Part shown: piece after piece, positions 9,729 through 39,949 of the stretch
Position numbering within the stretch: the stretch's first letter is position 1
Layout: the number at the start of each line of letters is the position of its first letter
Origin: Escherichia phage PE37
Strand: one strand, 5' to 3'
Sequence record: NC_054929.1
DNA: 64,000 nucleotides
Position numbers and translations under genes: made by a program
Notes under the pieces: model-generated
Databases searched by the model: none
What the model was told of the DNA's origin: nothing
What the model saw: only the letters and a program-made list of their open reading frames with translations

Positions 9729-10031
9729 ATGTTATACTCAAAAGCTCGTGAAATTTATGAAACTAAAATTAAAGACGCGGTTCATCAGTTCGCAACGACA
9801 ATGCGTTGGACAAATGACTGGGAATACTCCAAGAATCATAAGAAGCCCTTGGTGACAAGAAAGGCTCATATGTTAGTGTTAATAGACCGTGAGCAGATTA
9901 AAGCCCGAGAAGCCCTCCAGAATCATAAAAAGGCTGCCTTTGAATGGTTTATGGATAACACTGCTCCTGAGACTAAGAAAGCAGTGAGCGCTTGGTTCAG
10001 TGGAAAAAATTGTGAAAGAAGTTTCTTTTAG
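9729..10031 (+). CDS. hypothetical protein (100 aa)
   Basis: Track ORF 9717..10031 trimmed to ATG 9729 with GGAGG RBS. Confidence 0.5.
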   Translation: MLYSKAREIYETKIKDAVHQFATTMRWTNDWEYSKNHKKPLVTRKAHMLVLIDREQIKAREALQNHKKAAFEWFMDNTAPETKKAVSAWFSGKNCERSFF

Positions 10032-10033
10032 TT

Positions 10034-10063
10034 GTTTACAAGACTGTTCCTCTGTGGTACTAT
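10034..10063 (+). promoter_or_regulatory. T4-type early promoter with conserved leader
   Basis: gtttacaagactgttcctctgtggtactat + acaactatcaact leader. Confidence 0.55.
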
Positions 10064-10091
10064 ACAACTATCAACTACGGAGGAACAGAAA

Positions 10092-10619
10092 ATGAACGCT
10101 AAAGATATTTTCAACTTGGTAAACTACAATGATGGTAAATTTAAATCTGAAGCACAAAGTAAGTTCTTTAATGACATCTCAATCGGAGGTGAAATCACTG
10201 TTGATGGAGGACAAATTTACAAATCCCGTTGGAATTGGATCGTTATTATTGATGAGATTGGTATTGTAGAAATTTACAAAAATACGAATAAAAATCGTAC
10301 ATTACACTGGTCTCGTGATACTAACGAACAGTACAAAAAGGATAAAGCATCTAAGTTATCTCGTGTAACTCAAGAAGATATTGAGTTCATCAAGAAAGAT
10401 ATTTTGATGTATGATAACTTAATTGCTGAAGAGCAAGCTGTTATTGATAAATTTGATGAGATTAAAGCTTCTCATAAAATTCCTGATTTTATGAAAGAAT
10501 CAGTAAATGAACGATACACTCTCATTTCAGAGCGTATTGAAACTTACAAAAAGCAAAGAGCTGAACGCCAGAATACTCTTCGGAAGTTTGAAGAACGGTT
10601 AAAGACGGTACTTGCATAA
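10092..10619 (+). CDS. hypothetical protein (175 aa) with C-terminal coiled coil
   Basis: Track ORF trimmed to ATG 10092 with GGAGGAACAG RBS. Confidence 0.55.
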   Translation: MNAKDIFNLVNYNDGKFKSEAQSKFFNDISIGGEITVDGGQIYKSRWNWIVIIDEIGIVEIYKNTNKNRTLHWSRDTNEQYKKDKASKLSRVTQEDIEFIKKDILMYDNLIAEEQAVIDKFDEIKASHKIPDFMKESVNERYTLISERIETYKKQRAERQNTLRKFEERLKTVLA

Positions 10620-10621
10620 CC

Positions 10622-10646
10622 GCTTTATACCAAGGATGGTATAATG
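10622..10646 (+). promoter_or_regulatory. promoter (MotA-box-like GCTTTAT + TATAAT)
   Basis: cgctttataccaaggatggtataatgg. Confidence 0.4.
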
Positions 10647-35289: not shown

Positions 35290-35371
35290 CATACAAGTAA
35301 TATAAATCTATACTTATGAAAAACAGATGATTCTGGACATTTAGAATTCCCTAAAAAATTTTCACAAAACT

Positions 35372-35405
35372 GTTTACAAGAATGTTCTTCCATGGTACTA
35401 TACAA
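35372..35405 (+). promoter_or_regulatory. T4-type early promoter with conserved leader
   Basis: tgtttacaagaatgttcttccatggtactat + leader acaactatcaactactgatacggatttggataataaaATG. Confidence 0.6.
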
Positions 35406-35438
35406 CTATCAACTACTGATACGGATTTGGATAATAAA

Positions 35439-35675
35439 ATGAAAATTGTTATGGGTTGCTTAGCAGTTTGTTTAGTTGCATTAGCAGCAGTTCCATTTGT
35501 TAGTGTTGAAAATGATACTCAACCTGTGATTGAATCTAGCACTGTTATTCACACTAATGGTAAAATATCAGTTAAAATTGATGATAATCTTCATGTGAAT
35601 ACAAATGGATCTTTAGGTGTGCAAATGGGTAATACCTGCATAAGCACTACTGGAGTAATTACTACTTGCATTTGA
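35439..35675 (+). CDS. small secreted/membrane protein (78 aa)
   Basis: Track ORF trimmed to ATG after conserved leader; signal-peptide-like N-terminus. Confidence 0.55.
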   Translation: MKIVMGCLAVCLVALAAVPFVSVENDTQPVIESSTVIHTNGKISVKIDDNLHVNTNGSLGVQMGNTCISTTGVITTCI

Positions 35676-35685
35676 GGAAATTATT

Positions 35686-36066
35686 ATGAAAATCGCTATT
35701 TTGGTTATTGCATTAGGTCTTACTGGTTGTGTGGCTCAAGGACCGGTAGTAAATCAGTCTGATGCAGGAAAAATTGTAAACTGTTCAAGCAAGTTTTATA
35801 ATCCTAATGTCAAGTGTTATAAAGAAGCTCCAAAGCAAACAGTCGAACAAATGCAGGCGAATTTTGACGAAGCTATTCGTCCAGATGAATCTGCTCAAGC
35901 ATATCGTAATTCGGATGTAATTACACGCGAAGAAAAAATTGAAAACTACTGCGCCGAGCTTTGGGCAAATTGGGCTAATAATTACCAATGGCGTACCGGT
36001 AAAAATGCTCCGATGGAGTATGTAGTGAATTCTTATAATTCATGCGTAAAAAATTTGACTAAGTGA
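35686..36066 (+). CDS. predicted lipoprotein (126 aa)
   Basis: Signal peptide with lipobox LTGC. Confidence 0.6.
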   Translation: MKIAILVIALGLTGCVAQGPVVNQSDAGKIVNCSSKFYNPNVKCYKEAPKQTVEQMQANFDEAIRPDESAQAYRNSDVITREEKIENYCAELWANWANNYQWRTGKNAPMEYVVNSYNSCVKNLTK

Positions 36067-36073
36067 GGAAAAC

Positions 36074-36325
36074 ATGGAAACTTTAGTAGCAGGTTCAATT
36101 TTTATGGTTTTAGTTTCAGGTGTGTTGGCTATTATTATATACATGCTTCCATGGTTTATCGCCTTGATGCGTGGGTCAAAATCGACAGTAGGAATCTTTT
36201 TCACATCTTTACTGTTTAACTGGTCAATTATTGGTTGGTTTATTACATTTATTTGGTCAATTGCGGGTGAAACTAAAAAGTCTGCACAACCAAATCAGGT
36301 AATTATCATCAGAGAGAAGGAATGA
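36074..36325 (+). CDS. imm: superinfection immunity membrane protein Imm
   Basis: 83 aa, two TM helices, position upstream of gene 42 as in T4. Confidence 0.8.
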   Translation: METLVAGSIFMVLVSGVLAIIIYMLPWFIALMRGSKSTVGIFFTSLLFNWSIIGWFITFIWSIAGETKKSAQPNQVIIIREKE

Positions 36326-36471
36326 AAAGCAAAATTATAGCAGTGTTGCTTTTAATCTTGATGATTATAATAAGTATATACTATAGTGTAACGGTTCCTC
36401 TTATGATTCCAACTATTATTTTAGGTTGGGGTTTATTACTGTTACAAGTTAAATATGAATGTATCAATTGA
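36322..36471 (+). CDS. small membrane protein (49 aa)
   Basis: Hand-called ORF, ATGA overlap with imm; very hydrophobic. Confidence 0.4.
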   Translation: MKSKIIAVLLLILMIIISIYYSVTVPLMIPTIILGWGLLLLQVKYECIN

Positions 36472-36478
36472 GGTTTAA

Positions 36479-37219
36479 ATGATTAGTGACTCTATGACAG
36501 TTGAAGAAATCCGTCTTCATTTGGGGCTTGCATTAAAAGAAAAAGATTTCGTAGTTGATAAAACCGGTGTTAAAACTATTGAAATTATTGGCGCATCATT
36601 TGTAGCAGATGAACCGTTTATTTTTGGCGCTCTTAATGATGAATACATTCAGCGTGAACTTGAATGGTATAAATCTAAGAGCTTGTTTGTTAAAGATATT
36701 CCAGGTGAAACACCAAAGATTTGGCAGCAGGTAGCATCTTCTAAAGGCGAAATTAACTCGAATTATGGTTGGGCTATTTGGTCAGAAGATAACTATGCCC
36801 AGTATGATATGTGTTTAGCTGAACTTGGTCAAAATCCTGATTCTCGACGTGGTATCATGATTTATACTCGTCCATCCATGCAATTTGACTACAATAAAGA
36901 TGGTATGTCAGATTTCATGTGTACGAATACCGTACAATACTTGATTCGTGACAAGAAAATCAATGCGGTTGTTAACATGAGAAGCAATGATTGCTGGGCA
37001 GGCTATCGTAATGATTATGCATGGCAAAAATACGTATTAGATAAATTAGTATCTGATTTGAATGCAGGCGACCCATCGCGGCAATATAAAGCAGGTTCTA
37101 TTATATGGAACGTTGGAAGTCTTCATGTGTACGAAAATCAGTTTTATTTAGTTGACCATTGGTGGAACACTGGTGAAACTCATATTGCTAAAAAGGATTA
37201 TACTGGAAAATGGAAGTAA
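36479..37219 (+). CDS. 42: dCMP hydroxymethylase gp42
   Basis: 246 aa, thymidylate-synthase-like fold; length and position as in T4. Confidence 0.9.
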   Translation: MISDSMTVEEIRLHLGLALKEKDFVVDKTGVKTIEIIGASFVADEPFIFGALNDEYIQRELEWYKSKSLFVKDIPGETPKIWQQVASSKGEINSNYGWAIWSEDNYAQYDMCLAELGQNPDSRRGIMIYTRPSMQFDYNKDGMSDFMCTNTVQYLIRDKKINAVVNMRSNDCWAGYRNDYAWQKYVLDKLVSDLNAGDPSRQYKAGSIIWNVGSLHVYENQFYLVDHWWNTGETHIAKKDYTGKWK

Positions 37220-37851
37220 ATGCGCCACATGTTTATAAGTATAAACATCCTAAAACTAAAAAGTGGTATATAGGAAGTCATGATGGTCACAACCCGAATT
37301 ATGATGGTTCGGGTGTAGTTTGGCAACATGCTAAAAAGAAATATGGAATAAAATCCTTTAATAAAGAAATATTATATGAAGGACCAATGTTTAGACAGGT
37401 TGAAGAAATTATTTTAACTTGTTTAGATGCTGCTAATTGTCCGGATTCATATAATTTAAAGAATGAAGCATGGGGAGGAAGTTTTCCAGGCAAATTAAAT
37501 GGAATGTACGGTAAAAAACTATCTCCAGAAGAAAGATATAAGTGCGGAAATGCCTTTCGTGGAATCAAGCGTCCTGATCATTCTAAAAGAATGAAAGGCG
37601 AAGGTAATCCAATGTATGGTAAAAATGAGCAAGCATATGGAATTATAAATCGAGCAAAGGAAAATTCTGGTAAAACTTATGAAGAAATTTTTGGCGCAGA
37701 AAAAGCTAAAATAATTAAAGAAACGATGTCTAAAAATCGTAAAGGAAAACCTCATAATTTGATAGAAAAAATATGTCCGTATTGCGGACTAAAAGGACGT
37801 GGGCCAAATATGACAAGATACCATTTTGACAAATGTAAGGCACTTAAATGA
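37210..37851 (+). mobile_element. GIY-YIG homing endonuclease gene (Seg-like, free-standing)
   Basis: N-terminal VYKYKHP-x5-WYIGS motif, repeated GxxxS/NPMYGK motifs, C-terminal CPYC-x-CxxC zinc finger; absent at this locus in T4. Confidence 0.7.
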
Positions 37852-38690
37852 TTCAATTCGTAATTCCAAGCTATCAACGCGTAGGGGCAGTTTCTGCCCT
37901 TGATATGTTTCCGACTGATTATGAACCTCATATTGTAGTACGTGAACATGAAGAAAAAGCTTATTATGACGCTTACGGGTCTAGGGCTAAAATTATAACT
38001 ATTCCTGATGATGTTAATGGAATTGCTGGTACTCGTAAAGCAATTACTGATATGTATGCAGGTCAACGAATCTGGATGATTGATGATGATACTACTATTC
38101 GTATGAGTTCAATGCGAAAAAGAGATGATCGTCGTTGTGTGGATAAAGTCAATCAATTGACTCGTGAACAGTTCTATGAATTGATTCAATATGTTGAGGA
38201 TGCCATGGATTGTGGGTATTATCATGGCCATGCTCGTCTACCTATTTTTAAAATTACTTCATCTTGGGGTAATTATCGTGAAAATTCATATGGATTCACG
38301 AATACATGGTATGACCTCGGAAAACTTACGACAGAACAAATTGGGTATGGAAAAATTGATTTGTGCGAAGATATGTATGCATTTCTCAATTTAATTAATC
38401 AAGGTTATCCGCATTTGGCCTTGTTCAAATATCTGGTTGTATCTGGAAAAGCACAAGCTCCTGGCGGGTGCAGTTCAATTCGTAGTAATTCTAAACATAA
38501 TAGAGCGCTTGAACAAATCAATAGAGAATTTCCAGAGCAAGCTCGTTGGAAAACTTCTAATATTGAAAAACGAAAATCGTTGGGTGAAGAAGATGAGCCA
38601 TTAAAGGTTCTTCGTATGTGTGTTTCGCGCAAAGAAAAATCAGAAGCATTTCATAAGTTTAATGCTATTCATCCGATAGCAGTTGATTAA
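37848..38690 (+). CDS. putative DNA glycosyltransferase (GT-A-like, DxD motif) at the beta-gt locus; candidate T2/T6-type beta-alpha-glucosyltransferase
   Basis: 280 aa; IWMIDDDTT DxD motif; occupies position of T4 beta-gt but is unrelated to the 351-aa T4 protein. Confidence 0.5.
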   Translation: MIQFVIPSYQRVGAVSALDMFPTDYEPHIVVREHEEKAYYDAYGSRAKIITIPDDVNGIAGTRKAITDMYAGQRIWMIDDDTTIRMSSMRKRDDRRCVDKVNQLTREQFYELIQYVEDAMDCGYYHGHARLPIFKITSSWGNYRENSYGFTNTWYDLGKLTTEQIGYGKIDLCEDMYAFLNLINQGYPHLALFKYLVVSGKAQAPGGCSSIRSNSKHNRALEQINREFPEQARWKTSNIEKRKSLGEEDEPLKVLRMCVSRKEKSEAFHKFNAIHPIAVD

Positions 38691-38767
38691 TGCCTAAATT
38701 TATTGTGTTATAATTACTCTATCTTTAACCAGTGAGGAAAATATAATGATGCCTATGGAAAAAATGA

Positions 38768-39949
38768 ATGTCTATTGCAGATTTAAAATCCCGTTTGATT
38801 AAAGCTTCCACTTCTAAAATGACTGCTGAACTGACTACATCTAAATTCTTTAATGAAAAGGATGTAATCCGTACAAAAATTCCAATGCTGAATATTGCTA
38901 TTTCTGGTGCGATTGATGGCGGTATGCAGTCTGGTTTAACTATTTTCGCAGGGCCTTCTAAACACTTTAAATCAAATATGTCTTTGACTATGGTTGCGGC
39001 ATATTTGAACAAATATCCTGACGCGGTTTGTCTATTCTATGATAGCGAATTTGGTATTACTCCAGCTTATTTGCGATCCATGGGAGTTGACCCGGAACGA
39101 GTAATTCATACGCCAATCCAGTCAGTTGAACAGCTGAAAATTGATATGGTGAATCAGCTTGAAGCTATTGAGCGTGGTGAAAAGGTTATTGTATTCATCG
39201 ACTCAATCGGTAATATGGCTTCTAAGAAAGAAACGGAAGATGCTTTGAATGAAAAATCTGTGGCAGATATGACTCGTGCTAAATCACTGAAGTCATTATT
39301 CCGTATTGTTACTCCTTATTTTAGCATTAAAAATATTCCATGTGTTGCGGTTAACCATACAATTGAAACAATTGAAATGTTTAGTAAAACCGTGATGACA
39401 GGTGGTACAGGCGTAATGTATTCGGCTGATACTGTATTCATTATCGGTAAACGTCAGATTAAAGATGGTTCTGATCTTCAAGGGTATCAATTTGTTCTAA
39501 ATGTAGAAAAATCTCGTACCGTTAAAGAAAAAAGTAAATTCTTTATTGATGTTAAATTTGACGGTGGTATCGATCCTTATTCTGGATTGTTAGATATGGC
39601 TCTAGAATTAGGATTCGTAGTAAAACCTAAGAATGGTTGGTATGCTCGTGAATTTCTTGACGAAGAAACCGGCGAGATGATTCGCGAAGAAAAATCTTGG
39701 CGTGCAAAAGATACTAACTGCACTACATTCTGGGGTCCTTTATTTAAGCATCAACCATTCCGAGATGCTATTAAACGTGCTTATCAGTTAGGTGCTATTG
39801 ATAGTAATGAAATTGTTGAAGCTGAAGTTGACGAATTGATTAACTCAAAGGTTGAAAAATTTAAATCTCCAGAAAGTAAAAGTAAATCAGCAGCTGATTT
39901 AGAAACTGACCTAGAACAGTTAAGTGATATGGAAGAATTTAATGAATAA
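38768..39949 (+). CDS. uvsX: recombinase UvsX (RecA-like)
   Basis: 393 aa; Walker A GPSKHFKS; closely matches recalled T4 UvsX. Confidence 0.95.
   Translation: MSIADLKSRLIKASTSKMTAELTTSKFFNEKDVIRTKIPMLNIAISGAIDGGMQSGLTIFAGPSKHFKSNMSLTMVAAYLNKYPDAVCLFYDSEFGITPAYLRSMGVDPERVIHTPIQSVEQLKIDMVNQLEAIERGEKVIVFIDSIGNMASKKETEDALNEKSVADMTRAKSLKSLFRIVTPYFSIKNIPCVAVNHTIETIEMFSKTVMTGGTGVMYSADTVFIIGKRQIKDGSDLQGYQFVLNVEKSRTVKEKSKFFIDVKFDGGIDPYSGLLDMALELGFVVKPKNGWYAREFLDEETGEMIREEKSWRAKDTNCTTFWGPLFKHQPFRDAIKRAYQLGAIDSNEIVEAEVDELINSKVEKFKSPESKSKSAADLETDLEQLSDMEEFNE

What the first reader, a model, noticed from the sequence alone, without database searches (positions are those of the whole stretch)
37210..37851. 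Free-standing GIY-YIG homing endonuclease inserted between gene 42 and the glycosyltransferase gene
The 213-aa ORF has a GIY-YIG N-terminus (VYKYKHP...WYIGS), repeated NUMOD-like GxxxS/NPMYGK motifs and a C-terminal zinc finger, the architecture of T4 Seg-type endonucleases. Its start overlaps the gene 42 stop. T4 has no gene at this position, so this is probably a mobile insertion that could drive co-conversion of the flanking hmC-modification genes.
Basis: partly seen in the sequence, partly recalled or inferred. Interest (0 to 1): 0.55.

Follow-up and report, generated by a model that had tools for sequence, protein, structure and literature searches.

The report
Seg-type homing endonuclease beside gene 42
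This is a real, intact selfish-DNA gene (a Seg-type GIY-YIG homing endonuclease) sitting between the hydroxymethylase and glucosyltransferase genes of a T2/T6-like phage; it is an ordinary kind of element, but it always travels with an altered 240-bp end of gene 42, and its relatives always sit behind the same kind of gene in unrelated phages.

Summary

It is a precise 632-bp presence/absence polymorphism: 76 of about 506 Tequatrovirus records carry it, and T2, T4 and T6 do not.

- All 76 carriers also carry a variant, amino-acid-changing last 240 bp of gene 42 (38 fixed differences there, none elsewhere in 9 kb). Diversity inside the cassette is about 10-fold lower than in the flanks.
- Every relative examined at 44% identity or more (26 loci, many phage backbones) lies directly downstream of a thymidylate-synthase-family gene.

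Best reading: an intronless-homing cassette whose target lies in the 3' part of gene 42. It is a new member of a known kind, uncharacterised experimentally as far as I found. Cleavage activity and the target site are inferred, not shown.

The parts
37210..37851 (+). Seg-type free-standing homing endonuclease gene (213 aa plus stop)
   Evidence: ORF. PHROG 314 'homing endonuclease' matches at 1.2e-30. AF2 model has pLDDT 88.6. dN/dS against the Jiaodavirus and MHG19 homologues is 0.12-0.16.
37225..37479 (+). GIY-YIG nuclease domain (aa 6-90): Y9 ('VYK'), Y20-I-G22, Y31-x-G33-S34-G35, E65/E66, N82
37489..37623 (+). Two NUMOD3-like repeats (aa 94-103 GKLNGMYGKK; aa 125-138 SKRMKGEGNPMYGK), probably extended DNA-binding segments
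   Evidence: Pfam NUMOD3 is sub-threshold here (E=0.0026, 18.1 bits against a 20.4 cut-off). 30 of 42 homologues match NUMOD3 at E<=0.01.
37765..37845 (+). C-terminal beta-beta-alpha CCHC zinc-finger-like module (C189, C192, H205, C209)
36980..37219 (+). Variant 3' block of gene 42 that always accompanies the endonuclease gene. It also holds the AAGGA Shine-Dalgarno-like motif (37193-37197) and the ATG (37210-37212).
   Evidence: 38 fixed differences between 7 carriers and 7 non-carriers lie here, and none elsewhere in 9.2 kb. None of the 76 carrier records has the common allele. The changes are patchy and alter the protein: VVFGF to CWAGY, ST to PS, SRH to ENQ, V to A, N to T, E to K.
36980..37006 (+). 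Densest patch of differences (17 of 27 nt). It encodes gp42 residues 168-176 (RSNDCWAGY against RSNDVVFGF), the TS-family active-site motif region. It is the candidate position of the cleavage or recognition site in endonuclease-free phages.
   Evidence: The nucleotides GATTGCTGGGCAGG are identical in the carrier Jiaodavirus KPN6. The assignment as target is an inference only.
37845..37851 (+). Downstream junction AAATGA: the endonuclease stop overlaps the beta-alpha-gt start, reproducing the gene 42/beta-alpha-gt overlap of endonuclease-free phages
   Evidence: Alignment of the window with CE1, RB32 and BYEP02.
36479..37219 (+). Gene 42 (dCMP hydroxymethylase), the upstream host gene and the inferred target gene
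   Evidence: PF00303 at 4.6e-15; annotated as gene 42 in relatives.
37848..38690 (+). Beta-glucosyl-HMC-alpha-glucosyltransferase gene (T2/T6 type), the downstream neighbour, showing no linkage to the element
   Evidence: PHROG 842 at 6e-89. There are no fixed differences between carriers and non-carriers downstream of 37848.

Best explanation
ORF 37210-37851 is a functional, or very recently functional, free-standing GIY-YIG homing endonuclease gene of the T4 Seg type. It is a promoter-less cassette. Its Shine-Dalgarno-like AAGGA and its ATG lie inside the last codons of gene 42, and its stop overlaps the start of the glucosyltransferase gene, so it is expressed on the gene 42 transcript. In a mixed infection with a phage that lacks it, the protein is expected to cut the competitor's DNA in the 3' part of gene 42. 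It would bind through its NUMOD3 segments and C-terminal zinc finger and cut with the GIY-YIG domain. The break would be repaired by the phage recombination machinery from the carrier genome. That copies the endonuclease gene together with the carrier's variant last ~240 bp of gene 42 ('intronless homing' or marker exclusion). The variant block is proposed to make the carrier immune to its own enzyme. The most likely position of the site is the RSND-VVFGF coding patch (equivalent to 36980-37006), 205-230 bp upstream of the insertion point. Shown here: the gene, its fold, its polymorphism, its complete linkage to the block, the low diversity of the cassette, purifying selection, and clade-wide synteny with TS-family genes. 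Inferred: cleavage activity, the target position, and immunity conferred by the block.
For: - Polymorphism: 76 of 506 records carry the gene. The indel is a precise 632 bp that restores the gene 42 terminus and the ATGA overlap. T2, T4 and T6 lack it.
- Cassette footprint: in a 15-genome, 9.2-kb alignment, carrier versus non-carrier divergence is 0.10-0.19 in 36809-37219 against 0.02-0.05 elsewhere. All 38 fixed differences lie in 36980-37210. Diversity among carriers is 0.001-0.008 in the cassette against 0.02-0.05 in the flanks.
- Linkage: a chimeric 'common gene 42 block + endonuclease' query is covered by all 76 carriers, but at 91.9% identity at best, so none has the common block. Only 8 records have the variant block without the gene.
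- Selection: dN/dS is 0.12-0.16 between genera.
- Synteny: 8 of 8 contig look-ups, 16 of 16 IMG/VR loci at 47% identity or more, plus KPN6, place relatives directly downstream of a PF00303 gene while the downstream neighbour varies.
- Precedent: free-standing T4 endonucleases cut hundreds of bp from their own gene (PMC2988022). The GIY-YIG enzymes I-TevI and I-BmoI target TS genes (PMC5009752).
Against: - No cleavage or inheritance data exist for this protein. I found no paper describing it.
- The canonical catalytic Arg (I-TevI R27) has no alignable counterpart.
- Pfam's GIY-YIG and SegE_GIY-YIG models do not hit this sequence itself.
- Complete linkage to the gene 42 block could partly reflect a single recent origin rather than selection against self-cleavage. 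The 76 records are not independent.
- The sharp left edge at 36980 could be the original recombination junction rather than a cleavage site.
- One lineage (REP2/REP3) has a frameshifted copy, so decay does occur.
- No significant RNA structure or promoter signal was found.
Confidence: 0.78

Rival explanations
1. It is a homing endonuclease, but with a classical target at the insertion point itself, the gene 42/beta-alpha-gt junction GGTGAGTGG|AAATGATTC. Immunity would come simply from the insertion splitting the site. The variant gene 42 block would be hitch-hiking DNA from the original donor, not a resistance determinant.
For: Six of the fixed differences (37189-37210) sit within 22 bp of the junction. 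I-TevI-type GIY-YIG enzymes bind at the insertion site and cut about 25 bp away (PMC2988022). The block's patches resemble gene 42 of other genera that carry a homologue, KPN6 and MHG19, as expected for imported donor DNA.
Against: The downstream partner of the junction differs completely among relatives (beta-gt, beta-alpha-gt, dCMP deaminase, helicase, NTP-transferase clusters), so a junction-spanning site is not conserved. Pure hitch-hiking predicts linkage that decays gradually and differs between carriers. Instead the block is complete in 76 of 76 carriers and ends abruptly. Recombination inside the block does occur, as CE1-type alleles show, yet the reciprocal product was not found.
Confidence: 0.3
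2. The gene is an inactive relic. It would be a once-mobile endonuclease gene now inherited vertically or carried passively by ordinary recombination, retained because it couples translation of gene 42 and the glucosyltransferase gene.
For: The canonical Arg is missing. There is no Pfam GIY-YIG hit. REP2/REP3 carry a frameshifted copy. [quoted passage not shown]
Against: dN/dS of 0.12-0.16 shows purifying selection across genera. The catalytic Tyr, Glu and Asn and the four zinc ligands are conserved down to about 30-45% identity. The same Arg-less layout occurs in SegA, SegC and SegF, listed as active in PMC2988022. About 10-fold lower diversity in the cassette than in reshuffled flanks indicates recent spread across backgrounds. 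Endonuclease-free phages couple gene 42 and beta-alpha-gt equally well.
Confidence: 0.08
3. The nuclease has been co-opted for a phage benefit rather than pure selfish spread. Examples would be excluding competing T-even phages by cutting their essential gene 42, or promoting local recombination or amplification of the DNA-modification module.
For: The inferred target is an essential gene of competitors (gene 42 is noted as essential in the RB32 annotation). A 2026 paper reports that SegB promotes amplification of anti-defence loci (PMC13096335, abstract seen). The element sits between two DNA-modification genes.
Against: Only 15% of Tequatrovirus records carry the gene. Nothing in the sequence distinguishes benefit from selfish drive. 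No co-conversion footprint reaches the glucosyltransferase gene.
Confidence: 0.12

Closest known systems
T4 SegC (free-standing GIY-YIG endonuclease between genes 5.1 and 5.3)
   Same: It is the closest T4 paralogue: 35% identity over aa 7-138. It shares the short 'Y.G.H...Y.GSG' N-terminal layout, the Glu and the Asn, and it is a free-standing, promoter-less cassette (PMC2988022).
   Different: The locus is different. SegC ends in a helix-turn-helix-like tail, not a CCHC zinc finger. Nothing suggests that the target is shared.
T4 SegF and SegG (intronless homing; targets in genes 56 and 32)
   Same: Each is a free-standing GIY-YIG gene beside an essential nucleotide-metabolism or replication gene. 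The cleavage site lies in the neighbouring gene at a distance from the endonuclease gene, with co-conversion and marker exclusion of T2 alleles (PMC2988022). The pattern here matches that model: a 240-bp linked block in the upstream gene.
   Different: Sequence identity is about 25% (SegF). The locus and target gene differ. Cleavage and exclusion are demonstrated for SegF and SegG but only inferred here.
T4 SegA (between beta-gt and uvsX, cuts uvsX)
   Same: It is a Seg-type gene flanking the same glucosyltransferase slot of the genome. A similarly placed homing endonuclease occurs beside beta-alpha-gt in phage CE1.
   Different: It lies on the other side of the glucosyltransferase gene. Identity is 26%. 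Its target is uvsX, not gene 42 (PMC2988022).
I-TevI and I-BmoI (intron-encoded GIY-YIG endonucleases of thymidylate synthase genes)
   Different: This gene is free-standing, not intron-encoded. It lacks I-TevI's helix 1 with R27. Its zinc finger is C-terminal rather than in the linker, and it has no C-terminal helix-turn-helix. The associated gene is a pyrimidine hydroxymethylase-type paralogue, not td or thyA.
Seg-like endonucleases with the same C-terminal zinc finger in other T4-type phages (RB16, STP4-a, Acinetobacter, Aeromonas and Pseudomonas phages)
   Same: The full-length architecture is the same at 25-31% identity (loci L056-L114).
   Different: They sit at other loci, such as head genes or tRNA regions, and have no TS-family gene within 2.5 kb. 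They are presumably aimed at other targets.

Membership tests
GIY-YIG nuclease superfamily | GIY...YIG motif pair with the two conserved tyrosines about 10-11 residues apart | tested here: met
   V8-Y9-K10 ... Y20-I21-G22. Y9 is conserved in at least 90% and Y20 and G22 are invariant in 42 homologues. They align with I-TevI Y6 and Y17.
GIY-YIG nuclease superfamily | Conserved catalytic Arg on helix 1 (I-TevI R27) | tested here: inconclusive
   The family profile has a gap of about 10 residues exactly where I-TevI carries helix 1 and R27. T4 SegA, SegC and SegF have the same gap. No equivalent could be assigned without model coordinates. R62 and K44 are conserved candidates, but that is inference only.
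GIY-YIG nuclease superfamily | Catalytic Glu (I-TevI E75) and conserved Asn (I-TevI N90) | tested here: met
   E65/E66 align with E75, and N82 (in YNL) aligns with N90. E66 and N82 are invariant across the window protein, SegA, SegC, SegF, KPN6 and I-TevI.
GIY-YIG nuclease superfamily | Three-stranded beta-sheet with flanking helices (the GIY-YIG fold) | tested here: met
GIY-YIG nuclease superfamily | Match to the curated Pfam models PF01541 or PF19835 above threshold | tested here: not met
   This protein has no hit. Among 42 homologues, 14 match SegE_GIY-YIG and 6 match GIY-YIG at E<=0.01. TIGR01453 gives 24.9 bits against a 56 cut-off.
T4 Seg-type free-standing homing endonuclease genes | Stand-alone gene (not in an intron or intein) between genes conserved in related phages, with both neighbours intact | tested here: met
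   Gene 42 and beta-alpha-gt are both full-length. The indel is a precise 632 bp.
T4 Seg-type free-standing homing endonuclease genes | Sporadic presence or absence among close relatives | tested here: met
   76 of 506 records carry it. It is absent from T2, T4, T6 and RB32.
T4 Seg-type free-standing homing endonuclease genes | Site-specific double-strand cleavage of the endonuclease-free allele | not testable with these tools
   This needs purified protein or extracts. Only an indirect footprint is available.
T4 Seg-type free-standing homing endonuclease genes | Preferential inheritance with co-conversion of flanking markers in mixed infection | not testable with these tools
   Population data are compatible with it: the gene 42 block is linked and the cassette has low diversity. 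No cross was possible.
NUMOD3 DNA-binding motif (PF07460) | Pfam gathering score reached | tested here: not met
   18.1 bits against a 20.4 cut-off, E=0.0026, residues 125-138. 30 of 42 homologues match at E<=0.01.
Zinc-finger DNA-binding module | Four conserved metal ligands in a beta-beta-alpha or knuckle arrangement | tested here: met
   C189, C192, H205 and C209 are invariant. The beta-beta-alpha arrangement is predicted at residues 186-212. Metal binding itself was not tested.

The most novel reading that the evidence does not exclude
The clade of relatives at about 45% identity or more may be a lineage of free-standing GIY-YIG endonucleases specialised on pyrimidine-hydroxymethylase (TS-family) genes. 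It would be a free-standing counterpart of the intron-encoded I-TevI and I-BmoI, which target TS genes. It would recognise the conserved active-site-coding region (RSxD...G) and carry its own resistant version of that region with it. By repeatedly converting the 3' end of the hydroxymethylase gene, and sometimes the adjacent sugar-transferase module, it would move pieces of DNA-hypermodification pathways between phage genera.
Probability: 0.4. Interest if true: 0.6.

Novelty: new member of a known kind. Interest (0 to 1): 0.42.

Why it matters
Free-standing homing endonucleases are the known cause of localized marker exclusion between T-even phages. Each new one defines a place where genomes are forcibly rewritten in mixed infections.

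This one sits inside the DNA-modification module (hydroxymethylase plus glucosyltransferase), which decides how a phage escapes restriction. It is tied to an amino-acid-changing variant of the hydroxymethylase active-site region.

If the target assignment is right, it gives a directly testable case of an endonuclease and its resistant target allele travelling as one cassette. It would also give a second, independent GIY-YIG lineage focused on TS-fold genes.

In practice, 15% of sequenced Tequatrovirus genomes, many of them therapy candidates, carry it, mostly annotated as 'hypothetical protein'.

Tried and rejected
- Direct Pfam, NCBIfam and PDB sequence searches with the single protein gave no significant GIY-YIG hit. 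A homologue profile and a structure model were needed.
- Sigma-70 promoter and terminator scans of 36200-38900 gave no more than shuffles do (16 found against 13.0 +/- 3.9).
- The RNA fold of 37165-37260 pairs the AAGGA with a downstream AUCCU, but the z-score is -0.33, so no claim of ribosome-binding-site sequestration is made.
- Rfam found nothing in 36000-39000.
- Antisense ORFs overlapping the gene (37299-37568, 37519-37755 and 37752-38066, minus strand) were treated as chance ORFs of an AT-rich genome. They have no homology support.
- The idea that the variant gene 42 block is one contiguous foreign import was rejected. Between the patches the sequence is identical to ordinary Tequatrovirus alleles and unlike KPN6 or MHG19.
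- Counting variant-block alleles with a 101-bp query gave ambiguous bands. It was replaced by the CE1-junction and chimeric queries.
- Literature searches for a description of an endonuclease between gene 42 and the glucosyltransferase gene found none.
- Ten other mid-sized ORFs of the window were screened against PHROGs for further homing endonucleases. None was found.
Full report
**1. The observation**

The window is a T-even-type phage genome segment that runs gene 43, imm, gene 42, X, beta-alpha-gt, uvsX, 40, 41 on the plus strand.
- ORF X is 37210..37851 (ATG, 213 aa).
- Gene 42 (dCMP hydroxymethylase, PF00303) ends with TAA at 37217-37219. The ATG of X at 37210 therefore lies 10 nt inside gene 42, in another frame.
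- The TGA of X (37849-37851) overlaps the ATG (37848) of the next gene. That gene is the T2/T6-type beta-glucosyl-HMC-alpha-glucosyltransferase (PHROG 842, E=6e-89; Pfam TAGT), not T4's beta-gt.

**2. What the protein is**

Single-sequence searches are weak:
- Pfam gives only a sub-threshold NUMOD3 match (18.1 bits against 20.4).
- NCBIfam TIGR01453 'group I intron endonuclease' reaches 24.9 bits against a 56 cut-off.
- Nothing significant appears in the PDB by sequence.
- PHROG 314 'homing endonuclease' matches at 1.2e-30.

Homologue-based evidence is stronger:
- A search of the 5.8-billion-protein collection returned 62 homologues. In an alignment of 42 of them (A1), 14 members match Pfam SegE_GIY-YIG, 6 match GIY-YIG and 30 match NUMOD3.
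- The A1 profile finds the I-TevI catalytic domain (1LN0) at E=0.008.

Catalytic residues:
- Aligned with I-TevI and with T4 SegA, SegC and SegF (A2), the protein keeps Y9 (GIY), Y20-I-G22 (YIG), E65/E66 (I-TevI E75) and N82 (N90).
- The stretch that in I-TevI forms helix 1 and carries R27 is absent from the whole family profile. It is equally absent from SegA, SegC and SegF.
- The Edgell-Gibb-Belfort review lists SegA, B, C, E, F and G as demonstrated endonucleases (PMC2988022). The missing canonical Arg is therefore a feature of the Seg clade, not evidence of inactivation.

Other features:
- The closest T4 paralogue is the gene between 5.1 and 5.4, which is segC (35% identity over aa 7-138).
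- Downstream of the nuclease domain come two NUMOD3-like repeats, a helical region and a C-terminal beta-beta-alpha module. Its four ligands C189, C192, H205 and C209 are invariant.
- This zinc-finger tail is not found in T4 SegA, SegC or SegF. It is shared by Seg-like proteins of RB16, STP4-a and Acinetobacter, Aeromonas and Pseudomonas T4-type phages at 25-31% identity.
- dN/dS against the Jiaodavirus (KPN6) and Yersinia phage MHG19 homologues is 0.155 and 0.123 (dS is saturated, but the direction is clear). The protein is under purifying selection.

**3. Distribution and anatomy of the insertion**

Counts in the phage collection, for a 1431-bp query centred on the gene:
- 506 Tequatrovirus-type records match.
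- 76 contain the gene.
- In an evenly spaced sample of 60 rows, about four fifths have gene 42 abutting beta-alpha-gt directly, and a few are T4-type.

T4, T2, T6 and RB32 lack the gene.

The junction:
- Endonuclease-free phages read ...GGT GAG TGG AAA TGA, with the beta-alpha-gt ATG inside AAATGA.
- Carriers read ...GGA AAA TGG AAG TAA ATG..., then 632 extra bp, then ...CTT AAATGA.
- The insertion is exact, rebuilds the last gene 42 codon and stop, and reproduces the ATGA overlap with beta-alpha-gt.
- The endonuclease's ATG (AAA TGG against GAG TGG) and an AAGGA 12 nt upstream (AAG GAT against AAA GAT) are created by substitutions inside gene 42's last codons. The same AAGGA...ATGG arrangement is found in KPN6 and MHG19.
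- The gene is thus a promoter-less, translationally embedded cassette, as the review describes for segC, segF and segG (PMC2988022). No promoter, terminator, Rfam or RNA-structure signal above chance was found.

T4 does have a Seg gene in this neighbourhood: segA, between beta-gt and uvsX. Phage CE1 has a homing endonuclease at the equivalent place beside beta-alpha-gt. The glucosyltransferase slot is therefore flanked by such elements on either side in different phages.

**4. Population footprint**

I aligned 9.2 kb (gene 43 to gene 41) from 7 carriers and 8 non-carriers.

Outside the cassette the two groups are indistinguishable:
- Between-group divergence equals within-group diversity, at 0.02-0.05.
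- There are no fixed differences, so the backgrounds are thoroughly recombined.

Inside 36809-37219 the picture changes:
- Between-group divergence jumps to 0.10-0.19.
- All 38 fixed differences of the whole alignment lie between 36980 and 37210.
- Among carriers, diversity drops to 0.001-0.008 in this block and in the endonuclease gene, about ten-fold below the flanks.
- Downstream, in beta-alpha-gt, there is no differentiation at all.

The differences in the block are patchy and change the protein:
- RSND-VVFGF becomes RSND-CWAGY (17 of 27 nt, 36980-37006).
- ST becomes PS.
- SRH becomes ENQ.
- V becomes A, N becomes T and E becomes K.

Between the patches the sequence is ordinary Tequatrovirus sequence. 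The patch variants (CWAGY, ENQ/QNQ, DYTGKW) and parts of their nucleotide sequence are shared with gene 42 of KPN6 and MHG19, which carry homologues of the endonuclease.

Two database-wide checks extend this result:
- A chimeric query joining the common (RB32) block to the endonuclease 5' half is covered by all 76 carriers, but at 91.9% identity at best. None of the 76 carriers has the common block.
- A query spanning the CE1 allele finds only 8 records (7 phages) with the variant block and no endonuclease gene.

The mobile unit is therefore about 870 bp: the last 240 bp of gene 42 plus the endonuclease gene.

**5. Relatives elsewhere**
- The KPN6 homologue (70% identity) lies between gene 42 and a glucosyltransferase gene in a different genus, Jiaodavirus.
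- Eight further homologues (65% down to about 44% identity) were located on their contigs. All eight lie immediately downstream of a PF00303 gene on the same strand.
- The downstream neighbour varies: T4-type beta-gt, small ORFs, dCMP deaminase plus family-A polymerase, a DEAD-type helicase, CofD/IspD-type genes, and NTP-transferase clusters.
- In IMG/VR, 16 of 16 loci with full-length relatives at 47% identity or more have a TS-family ORF ending from 6 nt of overlap to 218 nt before the match.
- About 55 more distant relatives (25-35% identity, or zinc-finger-only matches) have no TS-family ORF within 2.5 kb. A few distant relatives (L053, L098-L101) do have one.
- Several IMG/VR loci are near-duplicates, so the number of independent cases is smaller, roughly ten groups.

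The constant partner is the TS-family gene, not the junction. This points to a target inside that gene.

**6. Mechanism proposed**

Shown here:
- An intact Seg-type GIY-YIG gene under purifying selection.
- A precise insertion polymorphism.
- A cassette of low diversity on recombined backgrounds.
- Complete linkage to a variant gene 42 3' block.
- Clade-wide synteny with TS-family genes.

Inferred, by analogy with SegF/gene 56, SegG/gene 32 and mobE/nrdB:
- In mixed infection the enzyme would cut the common gene 42 allele. Resection and UvsX-dependent repair from the carrier would then copy everything from the break through the endonuclease gene.
- The carrier's own variant block would escape cleavage.
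- The best candidate for the site is the RSND-VVFGF patch, 205-230 bp upstream of the insertion. It is the densest cluster of differences, it forms the sharp left edge of linkage, and it encodes the conserved TS-family active-site motif.
- Homing endonucleases typically exploit such regions. The GIY-YIG enzymes I-TevI and I-BmoI target TS genes at codons for conserved residues (PMC5009752).
- CE1-type alleles would then be resistant sites that lost, or never gained, the gene. The missing reciprocal class (endonuclease gene plus common block) would be self-cutting.

My confidence that this is a Seg-type homing cassette is about 0.8. My confidence in the specific site is about 0.4. The main alternative is a target at the junction, with the block as hitch-hiking donor DNA.

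**7. Comparison with what is known, and novelty**

The element is a new member of a known kind.
- It passes the structural and genomic tests for a Seg-type GIY-YIG free-standing endonuclease gene. It fails only the curated Pfam thresholds, and the canonical Arg test is inconclusive, exactly as for T4 Seg proteins.
- It is not one of T4's SegA-G (25-35% identity, a different locus, a different C-terminus).
- Public records label it 'hypothetical protein', 'putative homing endonuclease', 'site-specific intron-like DNA endonuclease' or, in one case, 'SegD'.
- I found no paper that describes or tests it, though the library is incomplete.
- The features that may be new are the complete linkage to an amino-acid-changing gene 42 block and the clade-wide attachment to TS-family genes.

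**8. Verdict**

Three corrections apply:
- The zinc-finger tail is not typical of T4's own Seg proteins.
- T4 has segA next to the same glucosyltransferase slot.
- The co-conversion footprint covers gene 42 only, not the glucosyltransferase gene.

Interest is moderate (0.42). A specialist would not be surprised by another Seg-like gene. The cassette structure and the TS-family specialisation do give a clean, directly testable system.

Noticed in passing
L017 8244-8909 (phage CE1); compare window 38690-39300: CE1 lacks the gene 42-side endonuclease but has another annotated homing endonuclease between beta-alpha-gt and uvsX, the position of T4 segA. Its uvsX 5' region is 22% diverged from the window (window 38809-39300), which suggests a co-converted tract.
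   Followed up: partly
L012 8949-11434 (phage HY03): uvsX is annotated in two pieces with a 'homing endonuclease' ORF (9922-10644) between them. This could be a split gene or an intron-type insertion in the recombinase gene, next to a carrier copy of the element.
   Followed up: no
L014 7391-8031 (phage REP2; also REP3): The endonuclease gene is 1 nt shorter and annotated as two ORFs (384 + 261 bp). This is a frameshifted, presumably decaying copy.
   Followed up: partly
L006 830-1000 (phage BYEP02): There is a 77-bp tandem duplication inside gene 42. The first copy has the variant-type haplotype and the second the common type, which breaks the reading frame. It may be a recombination intermediate or a mixed-population assembly artefact.
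   Followed up: partly
L002 2364-3102 (Klebsiella phage vB_KpnM_GF): Gene 42 is truncated at residue 214. It is followed directly by a 36-aa ORF equal to the zinc-finger C-terminus of the endonuclease homologue. This would be a deletion removing the end of an essential gene plus most of the endonuclease gene. The record is a partial genome, so it may be an assembly error.
   Followed up: partly
L030 3001-3684 (metagenomic homologue P0038): This homologue shares the nuclease and NUMOD3 parts (about 60% identity over 81%) but ends in a different, helix-turn-helix-like tail instead of the zinc finger. It still sits behind a TS-family gene, so this looks like a DNA-binding domain swap within the clade.
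   Followed up: no
window 35309-35558: This is a hypervariable stretch between gene 43 and imm.1, covering ORF 35382-35675. Pairwise diversity is 0.09-0.12 against about 0.03 around it, in both carriers and non-carriers.
   Followed up: no
window 37222-37224 and 37780-37782: The window's copy has A5 and Y191 (CPYC), whereas five other Tequatrovirus copies have V5 and H191 (CPHC). The cysteine ligands themselves are unchanged.
   Followed up: no
L016 14592-15242 (phage WL-3): Another annotated homing endonuclease lies just upstream of the dCTPase gene (gene 56) in a carrier genome. It is absent at that place in the window.
   Followed up: no
window 37195-37250: The AAGGA upstream of the endonuclease ATG can pair with AUCCU 50 nt downstream in the minimum-energy fold. 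The fold is no better than shuffled sequence (z=-0.33).
   Followed up: yes
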